64,000 nucleotides of DNA from a virus: positions 8,515 through 72,514 of IMG/VR virus record IMGVR_UViG_3300006919_000045; one strand, written 5' to 3'. The notes beneath the pieces are model-generated. The model had not been told where the DNA came from. It was given only the letters and a program-made list of their open reading frames with translations, and made no database searches. Below are positions 41,420 through 48,162 of this stretch, one piece after another (within the stretch, counting starts at the first letter, position 1; the number at the start of each line of letters is the position of its first letter). Position numbers and translations under genes: made by a program.

Positions 41420-42043
41420 ACTCCTTGATTTATCAAGGATTTTGGCGCGCTCGCGCCAGTAGTAGTGCGACAGCGAAGTTGCTTAAAGGTGCAAATTAAG
41501 TTGAACAAAAACAGGTACTTAACAGTTAGTCTTTGAAAATTGGCGCGGGGGCGCCAGTAGTAGTGCAACGGTAGTTCAAATGTGGTGTTGCTTGCGCCAT
41601 TATAAGTAGTAGTGCAACAAAAGTCAAGTCTTTTTTGCGGGTGTGGTGCAAATTATTTACAATTGTACCAGTCTTCGTGCCAGACCCCGTGCCCACCCTG
41701 GTAGTATACGCGCAAAACGTGGCAATGTCAAGGATTATTTGCAGCAAGTCCCGGGATAATCTTTTAAAAGCGCGGCGCCGATTATACAGTAGTAGACCGG
41801 CAGTTGTCAAGTACTTTTTGCACAATTGGTGCAAATAAATCGCTTGACAAGTCTCTGCGGGGTAGCATATAATGGCAAATTGTGGCAAACCTGGGGCAAA
41901 CAGTGGCAAATTTACGAAAATTTTGGCAGATTAGGTGCAAAAAACACTTGACAGCCGAAATTTCGTACGCCGCCCCCCGGAATTCGCTTGCGTTGGGGTT
42001 ACGACAAAAAAGATTTGACATTGGGAACCGGAGGTAGTATAAT
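41420..42043. repeat. Injection-stop-like non-coding region with repeats, palindromes and divergent promoters
   Basis: Repeated GCGCC..AGTAGTAG, four GGTGCAAA, phased GGCAAA, palindrome TCCTTGAT-TT-ATCAAGGA, three leftward and two rightward sigma70 promoters. Confidence 0.65.
42015..42043 (+). promoter_or_regulatory. sigma70 early promoter
   Basis: TTGACA-17-TATAAT. Confidence 0.85.
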
Positions 42044-42067
42044 ATTTATCAAATCGGAGGAAACTGC

Positions 42068-42256
42068 ATGAACGATATTCAATTTGAAGCCTTTAGCTTG
42101 TACGCAGGTATGCGTATGGACGGTATGTCTAAGCTGGATGCATTTATGTGGACAATAAAGTGTCTGCTTCCAGAGGAAGACTACCCCAACGGATACGATG
42201 ATGGTGCAGTAGAGCTGTACTCTTGGTTGCGGCAGAAGGTAAAGCTGGATGACTAA
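42068..42256 (+). CDS. Hypothetical early protein
   Basis: GGAGG RBS behind a consensus promoter. Confidence 0.7.
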   Translation: MNDIQFEAFSLYAGMRMDGMSKLDAFMWTIKCLLPEEDYPNGYDDGAVELYSWLRQKVKLDD

Positions 42257-42674
42257 GATTAGAGTAAAAGCAAAAAAGCAATGGTCTGAGGCTGAGCGAC
42301 GTTTGGCCCGGGCTGCTGCAGCCTTTGCAACTAACGAACTAGCATTAGATGTAAGTCCGATACCTATTCACATTGTACTAAAGGGCAGAAACGAACAAGA
42401 TTTTGGTGACTCTATAGACCTGGGGCATAAAGTTATTGTACGTATTAACAAAAGCCCAAACTGGCTGGGTACTTTATTTCACGAACTAGAGCACGCTCGT
42501 CAATATGTTTACTGCGAACTTGAGCTAGAAACTGACCATGTTATATGGCGTGGAACACTATCTGCTAGAGATGCGGGCAACTATGAGGAGTACTGGAAAT
42601 CTCCTTGGGAAGTGGAAGCAAGGCAAAAAGAAAGAGAATTATTTGCAGCTTTCCAAAAAAATCTCTTGACATAA
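42249..42674 (+). CDS. HExxH zinc-metallopeptidase-like protein
   Basis: LFHELEHARQY...SPWEVEAR. Confidence 0.7.
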   Translation: MTKIRVKAKKQWSEAERRLARAAAAFATNELALDVSPIPIHIVLKGRNEQDFGDSIDLGHKVIVRINKSPNWLGTLFHELEHARQYVYCELELETDHVIWRGTLSARDAGNYEEYWKSPWEVEARQKERELFAAFQKNLLT

Positions 42675-42694
42675 TCCTCAGAACCTTGTATAAT
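42666..42694 (+). promoter_or_regulatory. sigma70 early promoter
   Basis: TTGACA-17-TATAAT. Confidence 0.85.
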
Positions 42695-42740
42695 ATATTT
42701 TCAAAAGTGGTAAAACAAACTAATTTTTCGGGAGAAAAAA

Positions 42741-43064
42741 ATGACTGATATGACTGCAAAGGCTTCGGCCAACTACTCACAAGAGATGGTTGAGTTCATC
42801 TCTAACTCTTACTCTGCTGCTCCGACTCGTGCTACAGTCGACCAGCTCGCTGAGAAGTTCAGCAAGACTCCACGTAGCATCATTGCTAAGCTCTCTGCTT
42901 TGGGTATCTACCAAAAAGTTGAGCGTGTAACCAAGCGCGGTGAGCCTGTCATTAAGAAGGAAGTCATCGTTGCTCAAGTAGCCGAGCGACTAGGTCGTGA
43001 TCTGCCTTCTGTAGGTAAGATGACCAAGGTTGATCTTGAAGCTCTGCTCGAGATCTTGGGATAA
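42741..43064 (+). CDS. T5 A2-like DNA-binding protein
   Basis: NYS...TVDQLAEKFSKTPRSIIAKLSALGIY...TKRGEPVIKK. Confidence 0.7.
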   Translation: MTDMTAKASANYSQEMVEFISNSYSAAPTRATVDQLAEKFSKTPRSIIAKLSALGIYQKVERVTKRGEPVIKKEVIVAQVAERLGRDLPSVGKMTKVDLEALLEILG

Positions 43065-43068
43065 ATCC

Positions 43069-43089
43069 CGGGGCCTAGTGCCCCGTTTA
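43069..43089 (+). terminator. Intrinsic terminator
   Basis: CGGGGC-CTAGT-GCCCCG then TTT. Confidence 0.6.
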
Positions 43090-43247
43090 CTTAAATACTT
43101 CTATGTATATAATATACTGTCGAATTGGAGCTTTAACTCTCGTGCTAAATGCATGGGAAGACTATTGGCTAGCATTTCGAGAAGCGGAGTCTTTAAATAA
43201 ACGGGATTACAAGGCGTACTACTTTGTACGTTATAAGGAGAATTTTA

Positions 43248-43460
43248 ATGGCAAAAACAATGATTTTTGATGCCGCTACTACGCGTGCATACCGTAAAGG
43301 ACGTTTTCAGGGCAAAAAAGTAATGTCACACGGTGCTTTTCGTGCAAAGCGAAAGCCTAACTCGCCTATCGTTAAGAGAGCGGAGGCCGTAAAAGCTGCT
43401 GCAACCTTTGGAAAAAGTCCTGAGTTCAAGTTCGCTATCTACGGCATTGAGGTAGAGTAA
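43248..43460 (+). CDS. Basic hypothetical protein
   Basis: TAAGGAG RBS; preceded by a structured leader. Confidence 0.65.
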   Translation: MAKTMIFDAATTRAYRKGRFQGKKVMSHGAFRAKRKPNSPIVKRAEAVKAAATFGKSPEFKFAIYGIEVE

Positions 43461-43645
43461 TGCATCTTGTTCAAGAGCAAGAAGAGCCAGGAAAAACTAA
43501 GTATAGAGTCTATACTAAAAACGGAGCACTAATTTATGTGGGCCATCACGCCGGTGCTGCCCAAGAAATGTACGAAAACGGAGAGCGGGAGGAGTTAGAT
43601 GTTAGAAAAACAAGAGAGGCTCGCAGTAGTGGATCGAGCGACTGA
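43460..43645 (+). CDS. Hypothetical protein
   Basis: TAATG coupling. Confidence 0.55.
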   Translation: MHLVQEQEEPGKTKYRVYTKNGALIYVGHHAGAAQEMYENGEREELDVRKTREARSSGSSD

Positions 43646-43838
43646 TACAATAGAAGTAGAAGGTCAACGTATGTCTTTCACAAGCCTGCAAAGAGTAAAA
43701 GATGAGCTGTGGCACAACTGGGCGCTTTCAGAAGCCGAGGTTGACCACGTAATTCGTACAATGTATCAAGAAGGGGAAATTCGTGAAACCTTTTCTCTTT
43801 CTTCCTTTTATCCTTCTACATGGGGAACGAAAATATGA
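43599..43838 (+). CDS. Hypothetical protein
   Basis: GGAGG RBS. Confidence 0.55.
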   Translation: MLEKQERLAVVDRATDTIEVEGQRMSFTSLQRVKDELWHNWALSEAEVDHVIRTMYQEGEIRETFSLSSFYPSTWGTKI

Positions 43839-44020
43839 GCTGTAACATTACAGAAGTGGATCAAGTGACAATTCAATTTGCTACAAATGGGACTGTGCTT
43901 GAGTTTAGTGGGCGTATTGACGGAGACTGGTCTACTCGAAAAGAGTTGTTTTTAGTAGGAGATGAAGCTGATTTGTTTGCACGTATCGCTGACCTTCAGG
44001 TGTGTCACCGTGGAACTTAA
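43835..44020 (+). CDS. Hypothetical protein
   Basis: ATGA coupling. Confidence 0.55.
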   Translation: MSCNITEVDQVTIQFATNGTVLEFSGRIDGDWSTRKELFLVGDEADLFARIADLQVCHRGT

Positions 44021-44197
44021 AGAAAGTGCAGAAGCAATAGTATTTTGTATAAGTAGCTTTTGTACTCATGAAGCTGACCTTAAAAAATTCGAACCTAAAC
44101 TTCACATGAACAGTGATGGGTTAGTCTTGGAATATAATGATAAGAGTACAGGACACAAAATGTTTGAAAAAATTTCTGGGCTGAAGAAAAATAATTC

Positions 44198-44227
44198 TTG
44201 ACTTTTAGTTCAAAAACGGAGTATAAT
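44198..44227 (+). promoter_or_regulatory. sigma70 promoter of non-coding unit
   Basis: TTGACT-18-TATAAT with upstream A tract. Confidence 0.75.
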
Positions 44228-44233
44228 ATCTTC

Positions 44234-44915
44234 TTAAATGGGGGAAGTCAGGGACGCACAGTACGCCACCGCACTTGCGATAAGACAGTAAAGATCCCGG
44301 TAAAAGTTAAGCCTATCCGGAGCCCCGACCTAATTTGTTCCGCCTTCGTTGACCCTGCCGTGTACAGGTTGAAAGGCATCGTCCGTGGGACAAAAGTGCT
44401 AATGCGGGATGGCAAAGCACTATAAAAAGTACCATCTTAGTTTAGTGCCACTTAGCGCACTTTTCCCTGTTCGAGGTACTATATCGAGCCCCCATGTGTA
44501 CGGGCGGAGGTGCACGACCAGTTATGGCTTTGACACGTTTTCGGATTCTGGTTTAGCAAAAACGAAAAAGAGGTAGGTTGCATCTGCAGTGCTAACCTAG
44601 ATACGTGATAGGAGGTAGGTGCGTATCACTACAACTATAGGAGGAAGTCCTTTTTATTATTGGTCTATTATTGCAAAGAGGCGTCGAAACCCTCGATCAT
44701 AACGAAAGGCACTATATAGCCTAGTGGCAGTTCGCGGCTTTAAACCTAACTGCGGGTTTATCTACTCAGACCCGCTAACGCTAAGGGAGTAGGCAACTGA
44801 CGAGTTGGACAATACGTAGATTTACTCAGTAGCTGCTTGGGAGTCATGCCCCAATGTAGACCTAACAAACGGTAATCGAAGGAATCCCTGCATAGAAATA
44901 TGTGGGGATTTTTTT
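44234..44915 (+). ncRNA. Putative large structured ncRNA (~680 nt)
   Basis: Own promoter and terminator, no credible ORF, more than ten hairpins and nested long-range helices. Confidence 0.7.
44883..44915 (+). terminator. Intrinsic terminator
   Basis: AATCCCTGCATA-GAAA-TATGTGGGGATT then T run. Confidence 0.85.
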
Positions 44916-44935
44916 ATGTGTACAAAAAATTTTCC

Positions 44936-44964
44936 TTGACATTTTTCTTCAGAACCTGTATAAT
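44936..44964 (+). promoter_or_regulatory. sigma70 early promoter
   Basis: TTGACA-17-TATAAT. Confidence 0.85.
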
Positions 44965-44987
44965 ATGGATTCTATGGGAGAAACTAC

Positions 44988-45305
44988 ATGGCAAAAATAC
45001 TAGAATTTCCAGACAATCGTTCGTTGGAAAGGCAGTTAAAGATACTTACTGATGAACTTGTTGAACTACACGAGACGATGGGTAAGTTGTACGATAGTCA
45101 AGCGGCCTTAGACGGGTTGATCCTGGAAAAAGAAGAAGCGTACTCTAATGTACTAAACAAATACTCGCACGCTATTGGAGCTGAGAACATTGCTATCTCG
45201 CTACTACAGTTTGCGACCGACCATATTCAAGTGGACTTAGAAACAGGAGATATAAGATATGTCCCGCCAAAAGAGGAAGAGGAGCCTGATCCGGAAGTGC
45301 CGTAA
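44988..45305 (+). CDS. Acidic coiled-coil hypothetical protein
   Basis: GGGAG RBS behind promoter; MAKILEFP start. Confidence 0.7.
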   Translation: MAKILEFPDNRSLERQLKILTDELVELHETMGKLYDSQAALDGLILEKEEAYSNVLNKYSHAIGAENIAISLLQFATDHIQVDLETGDIRYVPPKEEEEPDPEVP

Positions 45306-45480
45306 GTGCGGTAAGGCTTTTAAAGCTGAAATCGACTCCGTGCACTATTGCTCCGTAAATTGTATATCGGCTTCTCACAACCCCGTTGCTGCTTTTAATC
45401 ACAATCGCAGCGGGGTCCACAAGCCGAAGAAGGGCAAGGGAAGCTATACAAGAAAAACAAGAAGGAAGAGTTATGAGTAA
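45259..45480 (+). CDS. Zn-finger protein with ArfA-like C-terminal motif
   Basis: CRKC...YCSVNC plus KKGKGSYTRK; AGGAG RBS. Confidence 0.5.
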   Translation: MSRQKRKRSLIRKCRKCGKAFKAEIDSVHYCSVNCISASHNPVAAFNHNRSGVHKPKKGKGSYTRKTRRKSYE

Positions 45481-45796
45481 TTATTCGGAGAACGAAACGA
45501 CTTATATGGTGCAACTGTACCAGGAAACCCCGTGCATGGCTACGGTGGATTTGCTCGTGGAACAATTAAAAAGAAGTAAGAAATCGATTATAGGAAAGCT
45601 ATCACGAGAAGGTGTATACCGAAGGGAGGTGTATGTATCGAAAACTGGAGAGAAACCTATTACAAAAGTGGAAATCGTTTCTCATATTGCTGAAGGTTTG
45701 GGAGTTGAGGTTTCAGATCTGGCTGGTCTTGAGAAAGCTCCCAAAAACGTCCTTCGAATCCTATCAAAAGCTGCAGCGGGGTCAGCAATCTCCTAA
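45473..45796 (+). CDS. T5 A2-like DNA-binding protein
   Basis: NYS...TVDLLVEQLKRSKKSIIGKLSREGVY...SKTGEKPITK; clear paralog of 42741 ORF. Confidence 0.7.
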   Translation: MSNYSENETTYMVQLYQETPCMATVDLLVEQLKRSKKSIIGKLSREGVYRREVYVSKTGEKPITKVEIVSHIAEGLGVEVSDLAGLEKAPKNVLRILSKAAAGSAIS

Positions 45797-46004
45797 TGAC
45801 TAGGGGACAATTCTCGTATATTAGTAGGCTAGCGGAATAAATAAGGGAAAATTTACGAACGAATTGGCGCAAATTTTGAACAGTTGTTCGCAAATTTAAA
45901 AAAGATTTTTACTTAAAGTATTCGTTTGGGTCGTATGACCCGTATTATTCTTATTTAATTATCAGGGTCATAGAGATTGGTACAATTCACACTTTGCTTT
46001 TACG

Positions 46005-46176
46005 AATGTAGTAGCGGGTTAGTTGCTGACTTAGCATATCTTGTAGACACCCCGTGTATATACCCTGCTCCCGCTAAGGCTCTGCAGGGTATTTATGCAC
46101 GAAATAGCTACATTATGCTTACGTCAGCATGTAGTTAGTGAGAATCAGTAGACAGACCTTATTGTCTATCAATTTA
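46005..46176 (-). ncRNA. Putative rod-shaped ncRNA (3' end uncertain)
   Basis: 106-nt imperfect hairpin 46024-46129 whose G-U pairs work on the minus strand; upstream minus-strand promoter. Confidence 0.55.
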
Positions 46177-46182
46177 TGATAT

Positions 46183-46211
46183 ATTTTACCACACTTTTTG
46201 GCATATAGCAA
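46183..46211 (-). promoter_or_regulatory. sigma70 promoter with extended -10
   Basis: TTGCTA-17-TAAAAT with TG extension. Confidence 0.6.
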
Positions 46212-46407
46212 ATACTATTTTTGCCCTGGTCCTGGATTACAGTATCTGAGCAGTGTGAAGTTAACAAAAAAATATTATTTTGGAGGGTTAGGTGGAAGAC
46301 TATTTGTGGGTAGTAATTGGTTGTATGATTTTAGCAACAGTAAGTAAAGGATGTATTCCTGAAGGTATTATGTAACATCACAGCAGTAAGAGCATTCGCA
46401 TAAAACT

Positions 46408-46432
46408 AAAGGGGCTTCAAGGCCCCTTTTTT
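46408..46432. terminator. Bidirectional intrinsic terminator
   Basis: AAAGGGGC-TTCAAG-GCCCCTTTTTT. Confidence 0.75.
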
Positions 46433-46611
46433 ATATGACGTACAAATGGAGGGCATTTCGCAAGTATAGGAATATAGAAAGTGTAGGTAGTGCTATCCCG
46501 AGTATCATGATAATTTTTATACACGCAAACTCCAGTGGAGACAACTGAATTTCGATGGTTGTAGATTCCCGTTGCTCCTTCGAGAACGAGGTAAAGCCAA
46601 AGAACTTCCAA
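46417..46611 (-). CDS. Hypothetical protein
   Basis: TTG start behind MazG-like gene; weak support. Confidence 0.35.
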   Translation of the reverse strand: MEVLWLYLVLEGATGIYNHRNSVVSTGVCVYKNYHDTRDSTTYTFYIPILAKCPPFVRHIKKGP

Positions 46612-46618
46612 AGGTCTC

Positions 46619-47002
46619 TCACTGGTTTAGAATACTCTCTAAATCTGGGGCGAAAAAGCCCGGGCCTTTCATTACTTTACCGTTGTCTGCTTTGATTGGT
46701 GTTCCATCATCTCCTAACTTACTCATATTAGAAGCATGTACCTCAGTAAAACACTCATCAAGGTCAATACCAAATGTATGACCAGCACCGTATACAACAT
46801 AGAGTATGTCGGTGAGAGCATCGGCGATTTCGACCATATCTTTATTTGCAATCGCTTCAACCAATTCATCTACTTCTTCTTGAATTAAATCTACTCGTAG
46901 TTCACGAGTACTAAAGTCGGGCCAGGTTGGTTGAGTCTCGACCGATTGACCGAAAGCCTGCATGAAATCTCCCACAAGTTCAAAATTTGTTCCTTCTATC
47001 AT
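46619..47002 (-). CDS. MazG-like / PRA-PH-like NTP pyrophosphohydrolase
   Basis: LIQEEVDEL...EIADALTDILYV...EVHASNMSK...GKVMKGP. Confidence 0.85.
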   Translation of the reverse strand: MIEGTNFELVGDFMQAFGQSVETQPTWPDFSTRELRVDLIQEEVDELVEAIANKDMVEIADALTDILYVVYGAGHTFGIDLDECFTEVHASNMSKLGDDGTPIKADNGKVMKGPGFFAPDLESILNQ

Positions 47003-47180
47003 TATCTTTTCTCTTTCGTTTAAATCTTGCGACTGCAGCCTGTTTAGCCAGTCGTCGTTTTTCGCTTCTTGGTACATGATACTCCTTTTGTTTATAATCC
47101 CATAGTGTTTCTGAACATTTTTTCTTGAAAACTCGTAGAGCAGCGTCTACATTGTTGTTACGTACTTTAACTTTTGGCAT
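46980..47180 (-). CDS. rpsU: Ribosomal protein bS21
   Basis: MPKVKVRNNNVDAALRVFKKKC...EYHVPRSEKRR; AGGAG RBS. Confidence 0.85.
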   Translation of the reverse strand: MPKVKVRNNNVDAALRVFKKKCSETLWDYKQKEYHVPRSEKRRLAKQAAVARFKRKRKDNDRRNKF

Positions 47181-47194
47181 GTATCTCCTTTTGC

Positions 47195-47365
47195 CTAAAA
47201 ACTCCAACCTCTTTTACGTAGGTACGCTACTTGTTTGCGTATTGAGTTTTCTGTGCGATGAGGCAATACTTTTTCCTGTAGTTCACCTACAGTCATTCCA
47301 GAGTAGTGCTCTTTCAACAGTACTCTCTCGCGTATCGACCATGGTCGCTTTGAATATTCTCTCAT
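47195..47365 (-). CDS. Small Myb/SANT-like HTH protein
   Basis: RPWS..E...L..HY...LP.RT.NSIR pattern; leaderless start. Confidence 0.55.
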   Translation of the reverse strand: MREYSKRPWSIRERVLLKEHYSGMTVGELQEKVLPHRTENSIRKQVAYLRKRGWSF

Positions 47366-47372
47366 GACATAT

Positions 47373-47468
47373 ATTATATTCGAACTGAGCTTCAAAGTCA
47401 AGTGATATTTTTAAGAAGAGGTCCATAGAAAAATATTTCTTGACAACATTTTCAAAATCGAGTATAAT
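47373..47468. promoter_or_regulatory. Divergent sigma70 promoter pair
   Basis: Minus TTGACT-17-TATAAT (47401-47373) and plus TTGACA-17-TATAAT (47440-47468). Confidence 0.8.
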
Positions 47469-47506
47469 ATATCCAATAGAAAAATAAGCTGAAAAAGGAG
47501 AATCTC

Positions 47507-47745: not shown

Positions 47746-48162
47746 ATGACTAAGCAATTAGCTATGGCTGACCTACATAAAATTTTATTAGGTTTTGACC
47801 GTTTCATGGAACCAAATACATTCGCTCCAACCTTAGATGGCGGATACCCTCGATACAATGTGCTAAAAGTCGGAGACAACGGTTTCCGAGTAGAGTTAGC
47901 AGTTCCGGGCTGGAACAAAAATGACATTGAAATTGCTTTACACAAAGGCGTACTTACTGTTATTGGTAATGTAAAGCAAACCGAGGCGGAAAATGAATCC
48001 TATGTCTATAAGGGCCTAAGCGGTAAGTGTTTCACACGGACGTTCGGAGTAAGTGAGCACGTTAAAATTGATCGTGCTTATATGGAACGTGGCCTGCTAT
48101 GCATTGACTTGCATGAAGAAATTCCTAAGGAATTGCAACCAATTAAGGTTACTATTTCATAA
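47746..48162 (+). CDS. Small heat-shock protein (Hsp20/IbpA-like)
   Basis: YPRYNV, ELAVPG, YVYKGLS...FTRTF, GLLCIDL, I.I tail. Confidence 0.9.
   Translation: MTKQLAMADLHKILLGFDRFMEPNTFAPTLDGGYPRYNVLKVGDNGFRVELAVPGWNKNDIEIALHKGVLTVIGNVKQTEAENESYVYKGLSGKCFTRTFGVSEHVKIDRAYMERGLLCIDLHEEIPKELQPIKVTIS

What the first reader, a model, noticed from the sequence alone, without database searches (positions are those of the whole stretch)
44198..44915. Stand-alone ~680-nt highly structured non-coding transcription unit
Seen: a consensus promoter (44198-44227) and a strong terminator (44883-44915) enclose about 680 nt with no RBS-backed ORF, in an otherwise gene-dense early region. The interval is packed with helices: GTCAGGG/CCCCGAC at the 5' end; long-range TCCGCC..CGT (~44339) with ACGGGCGGA (~44500); GGGACAAAAGTGCTAA (~44386) with TTAGCGCACTTTTCCC (~44452); and hairpins GTTCGA/TCGAGC, CGTTTT/AAAACG, TAGGTT-GCA/TGC-TAACCTA, GATACGT/GCGTATC, GAGG/CCTC, CACTA/TAGTG, GCAGTT/AACTGC, GCGGGTTT/AGACCCGC and TTGGG/CCCAA. 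Several use G-U pairs that favour the plus strand. I see no tRNA, tmRNA, RNase P or group I/II intron signature. Known: large phage ncRNAs of this size class exist (GOLLD, ROOL). Inference: this is a divergent member or a new class of large phage RNA.
Basis: partly seen in the sequence, partly recalled or inferred. Interest (0 to 1): 0.88.

Follow-up and report, generated by a model that had tools for sequence, protein, structure and literature searches.

The report
New modular structured RNA of marine phages
This stretch is a stand-alone gene for a roughly 680-base folded, non-coding RNA of an uncatalogued family found only in uncultured marine T5-like phages, built around a 90-base core that in relatives sits beside ribosome-rescue RNA genes; its job is still unknown.

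Summary
The unit is real. A near-consensus promoter (44198-44227) and a hairpin plus U-run (44883-44915) bound about 680 nt with no conserved ORF. I collected 34 distinct full-length relatives (69-99.7% identical). On them a hand-built structure of 86 pairs is 94.6% paired, against 31-48% in slid controls, and 38 pairs change on both sides. Rfam 15 gives no match, even at E<=10.

- Its three long-range pairings are wrong; covariation assigns those strands other partners.
- Only the first 92 nt (44238-44329, "X", a three-way junction) are universal. X is found in 63 distinct loci, in transcripts from 125 to about 690 nt from X to terminator. It lies at the 5' end, at the 3' end, or between a permuted tmRNA and a tRNA. 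The other roughly 550 nt are swappable accessory domains.
- X-bearing phages often carry a permuted tmRNA or an ArfA-like ORF nearby.

X motifs are absent from 185,579 prokaryote genomes and from three cultured T5-like phages.

Function is inferred only: a trans-acting stable RNA with X as its binding or catalytic core, possibly linked to translation rescue.

This scan found the same family before on other DNA (e1-5326698, e1-6028592).

The parts
44198..44227 (+). sigma-70-type promoter TTGACT-18-TATAAT; transcription should start near 44234
   Evidence: 11 of 12 matches. A TTGAC..TA.AAT promoter was found in 59 of 61 rows; the 2 misses are loci cut at their start.
44238..44329 (+). Core domain X, a three-way junction. 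P1 is 44241-44/44323-26, P2 is 44247-49/44284-86, P3 is 44255-57/44277-79 plus an apical stem, and P4 is 44297-300/44317-20. The junction strands are near-invariant: GGGAAG, A-N-GGA, GAUAAG, AGUAAAGAU, AG.
   Evidence: Model R1 scores 87.4 bits, E 7e-20. On 38 diverse X sequences 97.3% of cells are paired and 15 of 19 pairs change on both sides, against 2-6 in slid controls.
44339..44389 (+). P5 domain: helix TCCGC/GTGGG enclosing the conserved CGUUGAC / AAGGCAUCG internal helix and a variable apical hairpin
   Evidence: helix 6: 5 of 5 pairs change on both sides; per-sequence folds.
44396..44437 (+). P6 hairpin GTGCT/AGCAC, whose loop GGATGG pairs with the downstream CCATCT (pseudoknot PKa)
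   Evidence: helix 9: 100% of cells paired; column 312-341 is GC in 17 rows and AU in 9. Helix 8 is nearly invariant. This subdomain is replaced in 7 of 34 relatives.
44445..44516 (+). Hairpins P7 (44445-60), P8 (44470-88) and P9 (about 44495-516; GGGCGGA lies in its loop)
   Evidence: helices 10 and 11 (4 of 5 pairs change on both sides in each). P7 variants GUGC/GCAC, GUGA/UCAC and GCG/CGC were read by eye.
44517..44568 (+). P10 (ACCAG/CTGGT) with a second pseudoknot PKb: UUUUCG (44538-43) pairs with CGAAAA (44563-68) in the A-rich strand
   Evidence: helices 12 and 13 (helix 13 is only 75% paired in the MAFFT register). Four different complementary versions (UUUUCG/CGAAAA, UUUGU/ACAAA, UUUCU/AGAAA, UUCUU/AAGAA) were read by eye.
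44575..44627 (+). P11 hairpin with a self-complementary loop (CUGCAG), and P12 hairpin GATACGTG/TGCGTATC with a purine-rich, SD-like loop AGGAGGUAGG
   Evidence: helix 14 (4 of 4 pairs change on both sides) and helix 15 (3 of 8). Loop palindromes CUGCAG, CGCG, UUGCAA and CCAUGG are; each alone is not significant (shuffle p 0.07-0.27).
44636..44753 (+). 3' module: single-stranded UAUAGGAGGAAGU; a long helix P13 (44649-65 with 44695-709) enclosing hairpin GAGG/CCTC; then hairpins CACTA/TAGTG and GCAGTT/AACTGC, whose loops (AGCC/GGCU) can kiss
   Evidence: helix 16 (3 of 4 pairs change on both sides) and helix 17. One search gives 691-694/727-730. P13 keeps its shape with a wholly different sequence in the L012 group (by eye). 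The module is absent in L009.
44753..44882 (+). 130-nt accessory module, present or absent among strains
   Evidence: Absent in 8 of 8 protein-fetched relatives. Present in L029, L034, L038 and L061, with a variant in L045 and L049. A DNA-run contig joins 44752 to 44883 with TAA between (tables 5 and 5c).
44883..44915 (+). Intrinsic terminator hairpin plus U7
   Evidence: Fold. A GGGGATTTTT end was found in 55 of 61 rows; the 6 misses are loci that end too soon. helix 18. Not listed by the scan. A new consensus promoter follows at 44936-44964.

Best explanation
The interval is the gene of a stand-alone, non-coding, modular structured RNA of an uncatalogued family, confined so far to uncultured marine and aquatic phages that are distantly T5-like.

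Shown: it is transcribed from its own early-type promoter and ends at its own terminator. Its universal part is the 92-nt three-way-junction domain X at the 5' end. The following roughly 550 nt are lineage-specific accessory domains (at least 12 helices and two pseudoknots) that are gained, lost or swapped between relatives.

Inferred: X is the working part, a rigid junction that presents near-invariant A-rich strands to a conserved partner, which may be a protein, an RNA or a small ligand. The RNA then acts in trans as an abundant stable RNA. X travels with the phage's stable-RNA genes (permuted tmRNA, tRNAs), and in other lineages with an ArfA-like ORF. For that reason the partner most likely belongs to the translation or ribosome-rescue apparatus, or to the host RNases that create the need for rescue. 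The accessory domains would stabilise the RNA, scaffold it or let copies associate.
For: Gene status: promoter and terminator are present in every relative whose locus reaches far enough, and a fresh consensus promoter follows the terminator here and in the short forms.

Non-coding.

Structure: on 34 sequences 94.6% of 2594 cells are paired against 31-48% when slid, 38 of 86 pairs change on both sides against 9-14, and 0 of 500 shuffles reach the covariation score.

X is the core. In a sample fetched through a neighbouring protein and not through the RNA motif, 39 of 80 loci have X upstream on the same strand, at 32-120 bits. On 38 diverse X sequences 97.3% of cells are paired and 15 of 19 pairs change on both sides. 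There are 63 distinct X loci, with 125 to about 690 nt from X to the first terminator-like T-run. In L155, L162 and L163 the same syntenic unit has X at its 3' end behind about 215 nt of unrelated RNA.

Company: a permuted tmRNA lies within 1.2 kb upstream or 4.5 kb downstream on the same strand in 17 of 63 X loci, and a tRNA is adjacent in 11 of 63. The order tmRNA-X-tRNA-Cys is seen in L097, L104, L106 and L107, with X starting 4 nt after the Rfam tmRNA match in L107, the one locus where this was measured. Rfam confirms the tmRNA. Of 13 close lineages with at least 4.5 kb of downstream flank, 7 have the tmRNA, 3 have an ArfA-like ORF, 3 have neither, and none has both.

Presence in RNA libraries: contigs of three metatranscriptome runs from three studies cover 44325-44857. 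This is weak evidence; see the Against line.

Phage-only so far: both X patterns find 0 stretches in genome contigs, against 40 IMG/VR contigs and 37 metagenome stretches.
Against: No experiment and no known homologue ties X to any partner, so the link to translation rests on neighbourhood only. All of these genes lie in one early or stable-RNA region, so proximity may reflect shared timing and not shared function. 46 of 63 X loci show no tmRNA in the flank held, though many of those flanks are short, and 3 of 13 well-flanked lineages have neither tmRNA nor ArfA-like ORF.

The ArfA match is below Pfam's cut-off (22.5 against 25.5 bits, E 8e-5). The window itself holds no tmRNA or tRNA.

Loci were fetched by exact X motifs, so the 'invariance' of those motifs is partly by construction; only searches are free of this.

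The RNA runs were found with this very stretch and are contigs only. They show presence in RNA libraries, not level, ends or strand.

The MFE is not lower than that of shuffles.
Confidence: 0.6

Rival explanations
1. The transcript is a precursor, a string of independent small RNAs. X and the other modules are cut apart by host RNase E, RNase P or RNase III and act separately, as tRNA-region transcripts of T-even and T5 phages do (recalled, not checked).
For: Modules are present, absent or reordered independently. X lies between a tmRNA and a tRNA, both of which are excised from precursors. An AU-rich single strand (CUAAUUUGUU) follows P1 of X. Adapter letters are joined to RNA-run contigs at 44355 and 44750, the latter at the edge of the 130-nt module (table 7; single runs each).
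Against: No ends were mapped, because contigs cannot show them. Long RNA-library contigs bridge several modules, for example 44325-44734 in X3 (table 8).
Confidence: 0.3
2. A ROOL/GOLLD-like RNA-only assembly: copies associate through self-complementary loops into a homo-oligomer, and the assembly is the function.
For: The P11 apical loop keeps a palindrome through different sequences (CUGCAG, CGCG, UUGCAA, CCAUGG). The P4 loop of X holds GUUAAC in most close relatives. The size, pseudoknots, phage origin and nearby tRNA and tmRNA genes resemble what is reported for ROOL and GOLLD (abstract of PMC12286853, search listing).
Against: Each palindrome alone is not significant (shuffle p 0.07-0.27). 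P11 is missing from the short family members, and the P4 loop varies freely in diverse X sequences, so oligomerisation cannot be the universal function. There is no Rfam match to ROOL or GOLLD.
Confidence: 0.2
3. Counter-defence RNA: X or the whole RNA is a decoy or antitoxin-like inhibitor of a host RNA-targeting defence nuclease. It would sit in one island with spare tRNAs and ribosome-rescue genes that repair the same damage.
For: It is an early, promoter-strong, phage-only RNA. It is found with tmRNA or an ArfA-like ORF and with tRNAs. One relative (L131) has an Rfam abiF-RNA match (45.4 bits, cut-off 37) between its tRNAs and X.
Against: No host counterpart of X was found, although only exact patterns were searched. 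No defence gene is known to be the target. The abiF match is a single case.
Confidence: 0.15
4. X is a new self-cleaving ribozyme that trims the RNAs it is fused to.
For: X is compact with near-invariant unpaired junction nucleotides. It occurs at boundaries between RNA genes and at transcript ends.
Against: There is no match to any ribozyme family. In L155, L162 and L163 X is followed only by a small hairpin and the terminator, so there is little to process. No cleavage site was mapped.
Confidence: 0.1
5. A cis-acting leader or riboswitch, like the glutamine riboswitch reported at the 3' end of a phage two-piece tmRNA gene, or a small-protein gene.
For: X has an aptamer-like size and junction. 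PMC9004378 (passages read) reports a glnA-type riboswitch in the 3' part of the ssrA gene of phage Melnitz, the same position that X holds in L107.
Against: The terminator is followed at once by a full consensus promoter, both in the long form (44936-44964) and in the short form, so nothing downstream depends on read-through. Neither glnA nor Downstream-peptide matches even at E<=10 on 111 nt. No ORF is conserved.
Confidence: 0.04

Closest known systems
ROOL and GOLLD RNAs (large ornate phage and prophage RNAs; Rfam families)
   Same: They are hundreds of nucleotides long, with many helices and pseudoknots, and are phage-borne. They are reported near tRNA genes. Their function is unknown, and self-association is possible.
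   Different: Their covariance models give no match. Here the conserved part is a 92-nt domain and the rest is swappable. Family members can be as short as 125 nt from X to terminator. Oligomerisation is untested.
Glutamine (glnA) riboswitch in the 3' part of the two-piece tmRNA gene of marine phage Melnitz (PMC9004378, passages read)
   Same: A compact junction RNA placed directly after a permuted tmRNA in a marine phage, as X is in L097, L104, L106 and L107.
   Different: There is no glnA or Downstream-peptide match. X usually has its own promoter and terminator and controls no downstream gene.
Small stable RNAs of phage tRNA regions (T4 species 1 and 2 RNAs, T5 tRNA-region RNAs; recalled, no sequence in hand)
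   Same: Phage-encoded stable RNAs of unknown function that are co-located, and sometimes co-transcribed, with tRNA genes.
   Different: They could not be compared. They are about 100-140 nt, whereas this locus reaches about 690 nt with accessory domains.
tmRNA (permuted, alphaproteobacterial type)
   Same: It is a neighbour in many relatives and is also pseudoknot-rich.
   Different: The window RNA has no tRNA-like domain, no CCA end and no tag frame. ARAGORN and Rfam are negative for it, and relaxed ARAGORN gives only noise.

Membership tests
ROOL / GOLLD (Rfam) | Match to the family covariance model | tested here: not met
   0 matches at gathering score in the window and in 25 related loci; none at E<=10 on 44100-45000.
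ROOL / GOLLD (Rfam) | Homo-oligomeric RNA-only cage | not testable with these tools
   The only data are loop palindromes, which are suggestive and not significant singly.
tmRNA | tRNA-like domain with T-arm and CCA end, plus a tag reading frame | tested here: not met
   ARAGORN finds 0 genes in the window. Rfam finds none. By contrast, true permuted tmRNAs were found in relatives' loci.
RNase P RNA | Match to the RNase P models and a P4 long-range helix between CR-I and CR-V | tested here: not met
   No match at E<=10. The GGAAGUC and GACAGUAAAGAUCCC strings that recalled CR-I and CR-V pair otherwise (GUC with GAC), and the UCCC strand covaries with P4, not with GGGA.
Glutamine riboswitch (glnA / Downstream-peptide) | Match to the model, and a position upstream of a gene that it regulates | tested here: not met
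   No match on 44230-44340 at E<=10. An own terminator followed by a new promoter.
Known self-cleaving ribozyme classes (hammerhead, twister, twister-sister, hatchet, pistol, HDV-like, glmS) | Match to the family model | tested here: not met
   none at E<=10. Cleavage itself is not testable here.
Protein-coding gene or micro-ORF | A reading frame kept among relatives | tested here: not met
   ORF length is 15-97 aa, the frame is lost after about 11 codons, and the start motif is missing in 8 of 34. Indels are not multiples of three.

The most novel reading that the evidence does not exclude
X is a new functional RNA class, either a ribozyme or a binder of a conserved partner (for example the tRNA/tmRNA elbow, an RNase or a ligand). 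Marine phages would deploy it together with their own tmRNA, tRNAs or an ArfA-like factor to keep ribosomes running, or to disarm host RNA-cleaving defences. The ornate 550-nt extension would be an add-on that multimerises or stabilises it.
Probability: 0.25. Interest if true: 0.9.

Novelty: new variant of a known kind. Interest (0 to 1): 0.78.

Why it matters
Large, intricately folded bacterial and phage RNAs without a known function are rare, and past examples have turned out to be ribozymes, riboswitches or RNA-only assemblies. This family offers an unusually clean handle. It has a 92-nt universal core with strong covariation, natural 'minimal' and 'extended' versions, and natural module swaps that show which parts are dispensable. 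It also keeps suggestive company: phage-encoded permuted tmRNA, tRNAs and an ArfA-like ORF. That company makes a link between a new RNA and ribosome rescue during infection directly testable.

Tried and rejected
Thermodynamic test: the MFE z-score is -0.18 on the plus strand and -1.63 on the minus strand, which gives no support for 'highly structured'.

blastn of the unit against 50,697 phage records found no match. Two other family members matched only tRNA and tmRNA pieces of cultured phages. tblastn of the downstream 107-aa protein against phages found no match.

RNAalifold on the whole MAFFT alignment gave a poor structure with a spurious pairing to the terminator. A brute-force column-pair scan was noisy. 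mafft-xinsi and mafft-qinsi are not installed. Several helices (P5c, P7, P11, PKb) are misaligned by MAFFT, so their counts understate them.

RNase P and tmRNA likenesses that I recalled by eye (GGAAGUC, GACAG..CCCGG, and a tag-like frame ATDELDNT* in 44753-44882) were not borne out. A conserved tag frame after PKb was rejected by eye. GGA-motif (CsrA-sponge) enrichment was rejected on my own rough estimate that about 10 GGA in 680 nt is what chance gives; no call tested it. Pairing of the purine loops with the pyrimidine tract 44459-44468 or with the 16S tail showed no consistent complement among variants (by eye).

RNA-run cover: no RNA-library contig lay on 44210-44290 (domain X) or on 44858-44938 (terminator), while the DNA run covers both. 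Depths (33-255 on the RNA body against 0-10 on the flanks) cannot rank genes either, because the runs were found with this stretch.

My impression that the flanking 107-aa paralogues are GcrA-like is recalled and untested; Pfam gave only a weak IF2_N match, E 0.0018.

Supplementary tables of PMC9004378, which list phages with two-piece tmRNA, were not seen.

Full report
WHAT IS THERE. The window is 64 kb of a 72.5-kb IMG/VR virus record. It encodes a siphovirus-type head and tail module, a DnaB-like helicase, a ligase and a DNA polymerase. The portal is 39-42% identical and the polymerase about 44% identical to those of cultured Demerecviridae (Vibrio, Aeromonas, Pectobacterium), so the phage is distantly T5-like.

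At 44198-44227 lies TTGACT-18-TATAAT. At 44883-44915 lies a long hairpin followed by U7. The simple terminator scan did not list this hairpin. A fresh consensus promoter follows at 44936-44964. Between the two signals, ARAGORN finds nothing. Rfam 15 finds nothing at gathering score in the whole window, only noise at E<=10 on 44100-45000, and nothing at all at E<=10 on the first 111 nt. The minimum free energy is no better than that of shuffles (z -0.18).

RELATIVES. I fetched loci through the two flanking proteins. The first about 555 nt of the unit are kept at 68-94% identity. A 130-nt piece (44753-44882) is missing from all of these relatives, and the terminator is identical. Two exact-pattern scans added loci L012-L061. 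In every row where the locus reached far enough there is a promoter and a terminator: 59 of 61 rows have the promoter and 55 of 61 the terminator, and every miss lies at a locus end. This gave 34 distinct full units of 518-719 nt, 69-99.7% identical to the window.

Indels are not in threes. The only sizeable ORF changes frame after about 11 codons, runs 15-97 aa, and lacks its start motif in 8 of 34. The unit is therefore non-coding.

STRUCTURE. RNAalifold on the raw alignment was poor. A column-pair scan and single-sequence folds let me write 18 helices, 86 pairs in all, including two pseudoknots. On alignment A2, 94.6% of 2594 cells are paired, against 31-48% when the 3' partners are slid by 1-3 columns. 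38 pairs change on both sides, against 9-14 in the slid controls. No shuffle of 500 reaches the observed paired share or covariation score. The shuffle control does not keep relatedness; the slid control does.

- GGGG pairs with CCCC (P1), and GUC pairs with the GAC at 44284-86 (U-A to C-G in 8 rows).
- TCCGC pairs with GTGGG at 44385-89, and all five pairs covary.
- GGGCGGA is the loop of hairpin P9.

Conserved G-U pairs fit the plus strand only.

THE CORE. I built model R1 from the first domain. It finds one copy in the virus record, and none in three cultured T5-like phage genomes.

To escape the bias of motif-based fetching, I fetched 80 loci through an alignment of the downstream 107-aa protein; that search found 398 relatives in IMG/VR. 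39 of the 80 loci have X upstream on the same strand, at scores down to 32 bits. On 38 diverse X sequences, 97.3% of cells are paired, and 15 of 19 pairs change on both sides, now including all four pairs of P4. Slid controls give 2-6. What stays nearly fixed is the junction: GGGAAG-(G-Y-C)-A-N-GGA-[P3]-GAUAAG-(G-R-C)-AGUAAAGAU-[P4]-AG-CCC.

A census by regular expression gives 115 loci and 63 distinct X. From X to the first terminator-like T-run is 125 to about 690 nt. In L155, L162 and L163 the same syntenic promoter-to-terminator unit has about 215 nt of unrelated RNA first and X last. The roughly 550 nt after X in the window are therefore accessory. Within the close relatives, whole subdomains are replaced (the P6/PKa subdomain in 7 of 34) or absent (the 3' module in L009), as shown. 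A DNA-run contig joins 44752 to 44883, so strains with and without the 130-nt module co-occur.

COMPANY. ARAGORN and Rfam find permuted tmRNA genes in relatives' loci (RF04321, and in the close relatives RF01849 alpha_tmRNA; tags such as ANDDIYALAA).
- 17 of 63 distinct X loci have one within 1.2 kb upstream or 4.5 kb downstream on the same strand, and 11 of 63 have an adjacent tRNA. Many flanks are short, so these figures are lower bounds.
- In L097, L104, L106 and L107 the order is tmRNA, X, tRNA-Cys, with X beginning 4 nt after the Rfam tmRNA match in L107, the one locus where I measured it.
- The window's own lineage has no tmRNA. It has instead a 73-aa zinc-ribbon ORF (45259-45480) whose tail KKGKGSYTRK matches Pfam ArfA at E 8e-5, below the cut-off.
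- Among 13 close lineages with at least 4.5 kb of downstream flank, 7 have the tmRNA, 3 have the ArfA-like ORF, 3 have neither, and none has both.

A paper on the marine phage Melnitz (PMC9004378; passages read) reports a two-piece tmRNA whose 3' part is a glutamine riboswitch. That is the position X holds in L107, but X does not match that family.

DISTRIBUTION AND EXPRESSION. Two X patterns find nothing in one genome each of 185,579 prokaryote species. The same core pattern finds 40 IMG/VR contigs. No cultured phage record holds X at blastn sensitivity. 20 public runs from 13 studies hold part of the stretch, and 6 of them are RNA libraries. Contigs of three RNA runs from three studies cover 44325-44857, including one 410-nt contig without a difference. 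Because these are contigs of runs found with this stretch, they show presence in RNA libraries only.

HOW IT MOST LIKELY WORKS.
- Shown: this is a stand-alone, conserved, structured, non-coding RNA gene with a universal 92-nt junction domain and swappable accessory domains.
- Inferred, at roughly one in three: X is the working part and binds a conserved partner connected with translation or ribosome rescue, and the RNA acts in trans.
- Rivals that overlap with this reading: processing into separate small RNAs, self-association through palindromic loops (the lead came from e1-6028592), a counter-defence decoy (an abiF-RNA match lies beside X in L131), and a self-cleaving X.
- A cis-regulatory role and a coding role are largely excluded.

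NOVELTY. I found no Rfam family and no paper describing this RNA. The searches were made; I saw listings only, except PMC9004378, where I read passages. The kind of RNA (ornate phage RNA of unknown function) is known from ROOL and GOLLD, but this is an unrelated family with a different logic: a small universal core plus optional ornaments. The scan reported the same family on other DNA before.

Noticed in passing
L012:13310-13736; also L008, L019, L049, L107, L116, L141, L144 and others: Relatives of this phage encode a permuted (two-piece) tmRNA, of the alphaproteobacterial type in the close relatives, with tags such as ANDDIYALAA and ANDDVYSLAA. This hints at an alphaproteobacterial host. 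In L012 the segment between the two tmRNA pieces begins with a Shine-Dalgarno sequence plus ATG and may hold a small ORF.
   Followed up: partly
window 45259-45480 (+): A 73-aa zinc-ribbon ORF ends in KKGKGSYTRK, a sub-threshold Pfam ArfA match (E 8e-5). Among well-flanked close lineages it is mutually exclusive with the phage tmRNA (3 against 7 of 13, never both), as if each phage needs one ribosome-rescue device.
   Followed up: partly
L131:1416-1447: An Rfam abiF RNA match (45.4 bits, cut-off 37) lies between tRNA-Met and X in one relative. It is possibly a phage copy of an abortive-infection-associated RNA.
   Followed up: no
window 42741-43064 and 45473-45796 (+): Two paralogous genes of about 107 aa bracket the RNA gene and share the motif KS(I/V)IGKLS..G(V/I)Y. 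The family has 398 relatives in IMG/VR. Pfam gives only a weak IF2_N match.
   Followed up: partly
window 46619-47077 (-) and 47746-48162 (+): A MazG/PRA-PH-type pyrophosphohydrolase and an Hsp20 small heat-shock protein are encoded a few kb downstream of the RNA gene.
   Followed up: no
window 41600-47470: An unusual density of perfect or near-perfect TTGACA-17/18-TATAAT promoters on both strands: five 12-of-12 matches on the plus strand within 6 kb.
   Followed up: no
window 45846-46211: Earlier notes of this scan flag a second possible structured RNA here. I did not examine it. Rfam gives no match at gathering score anywhere in the window.
   Followed up: no
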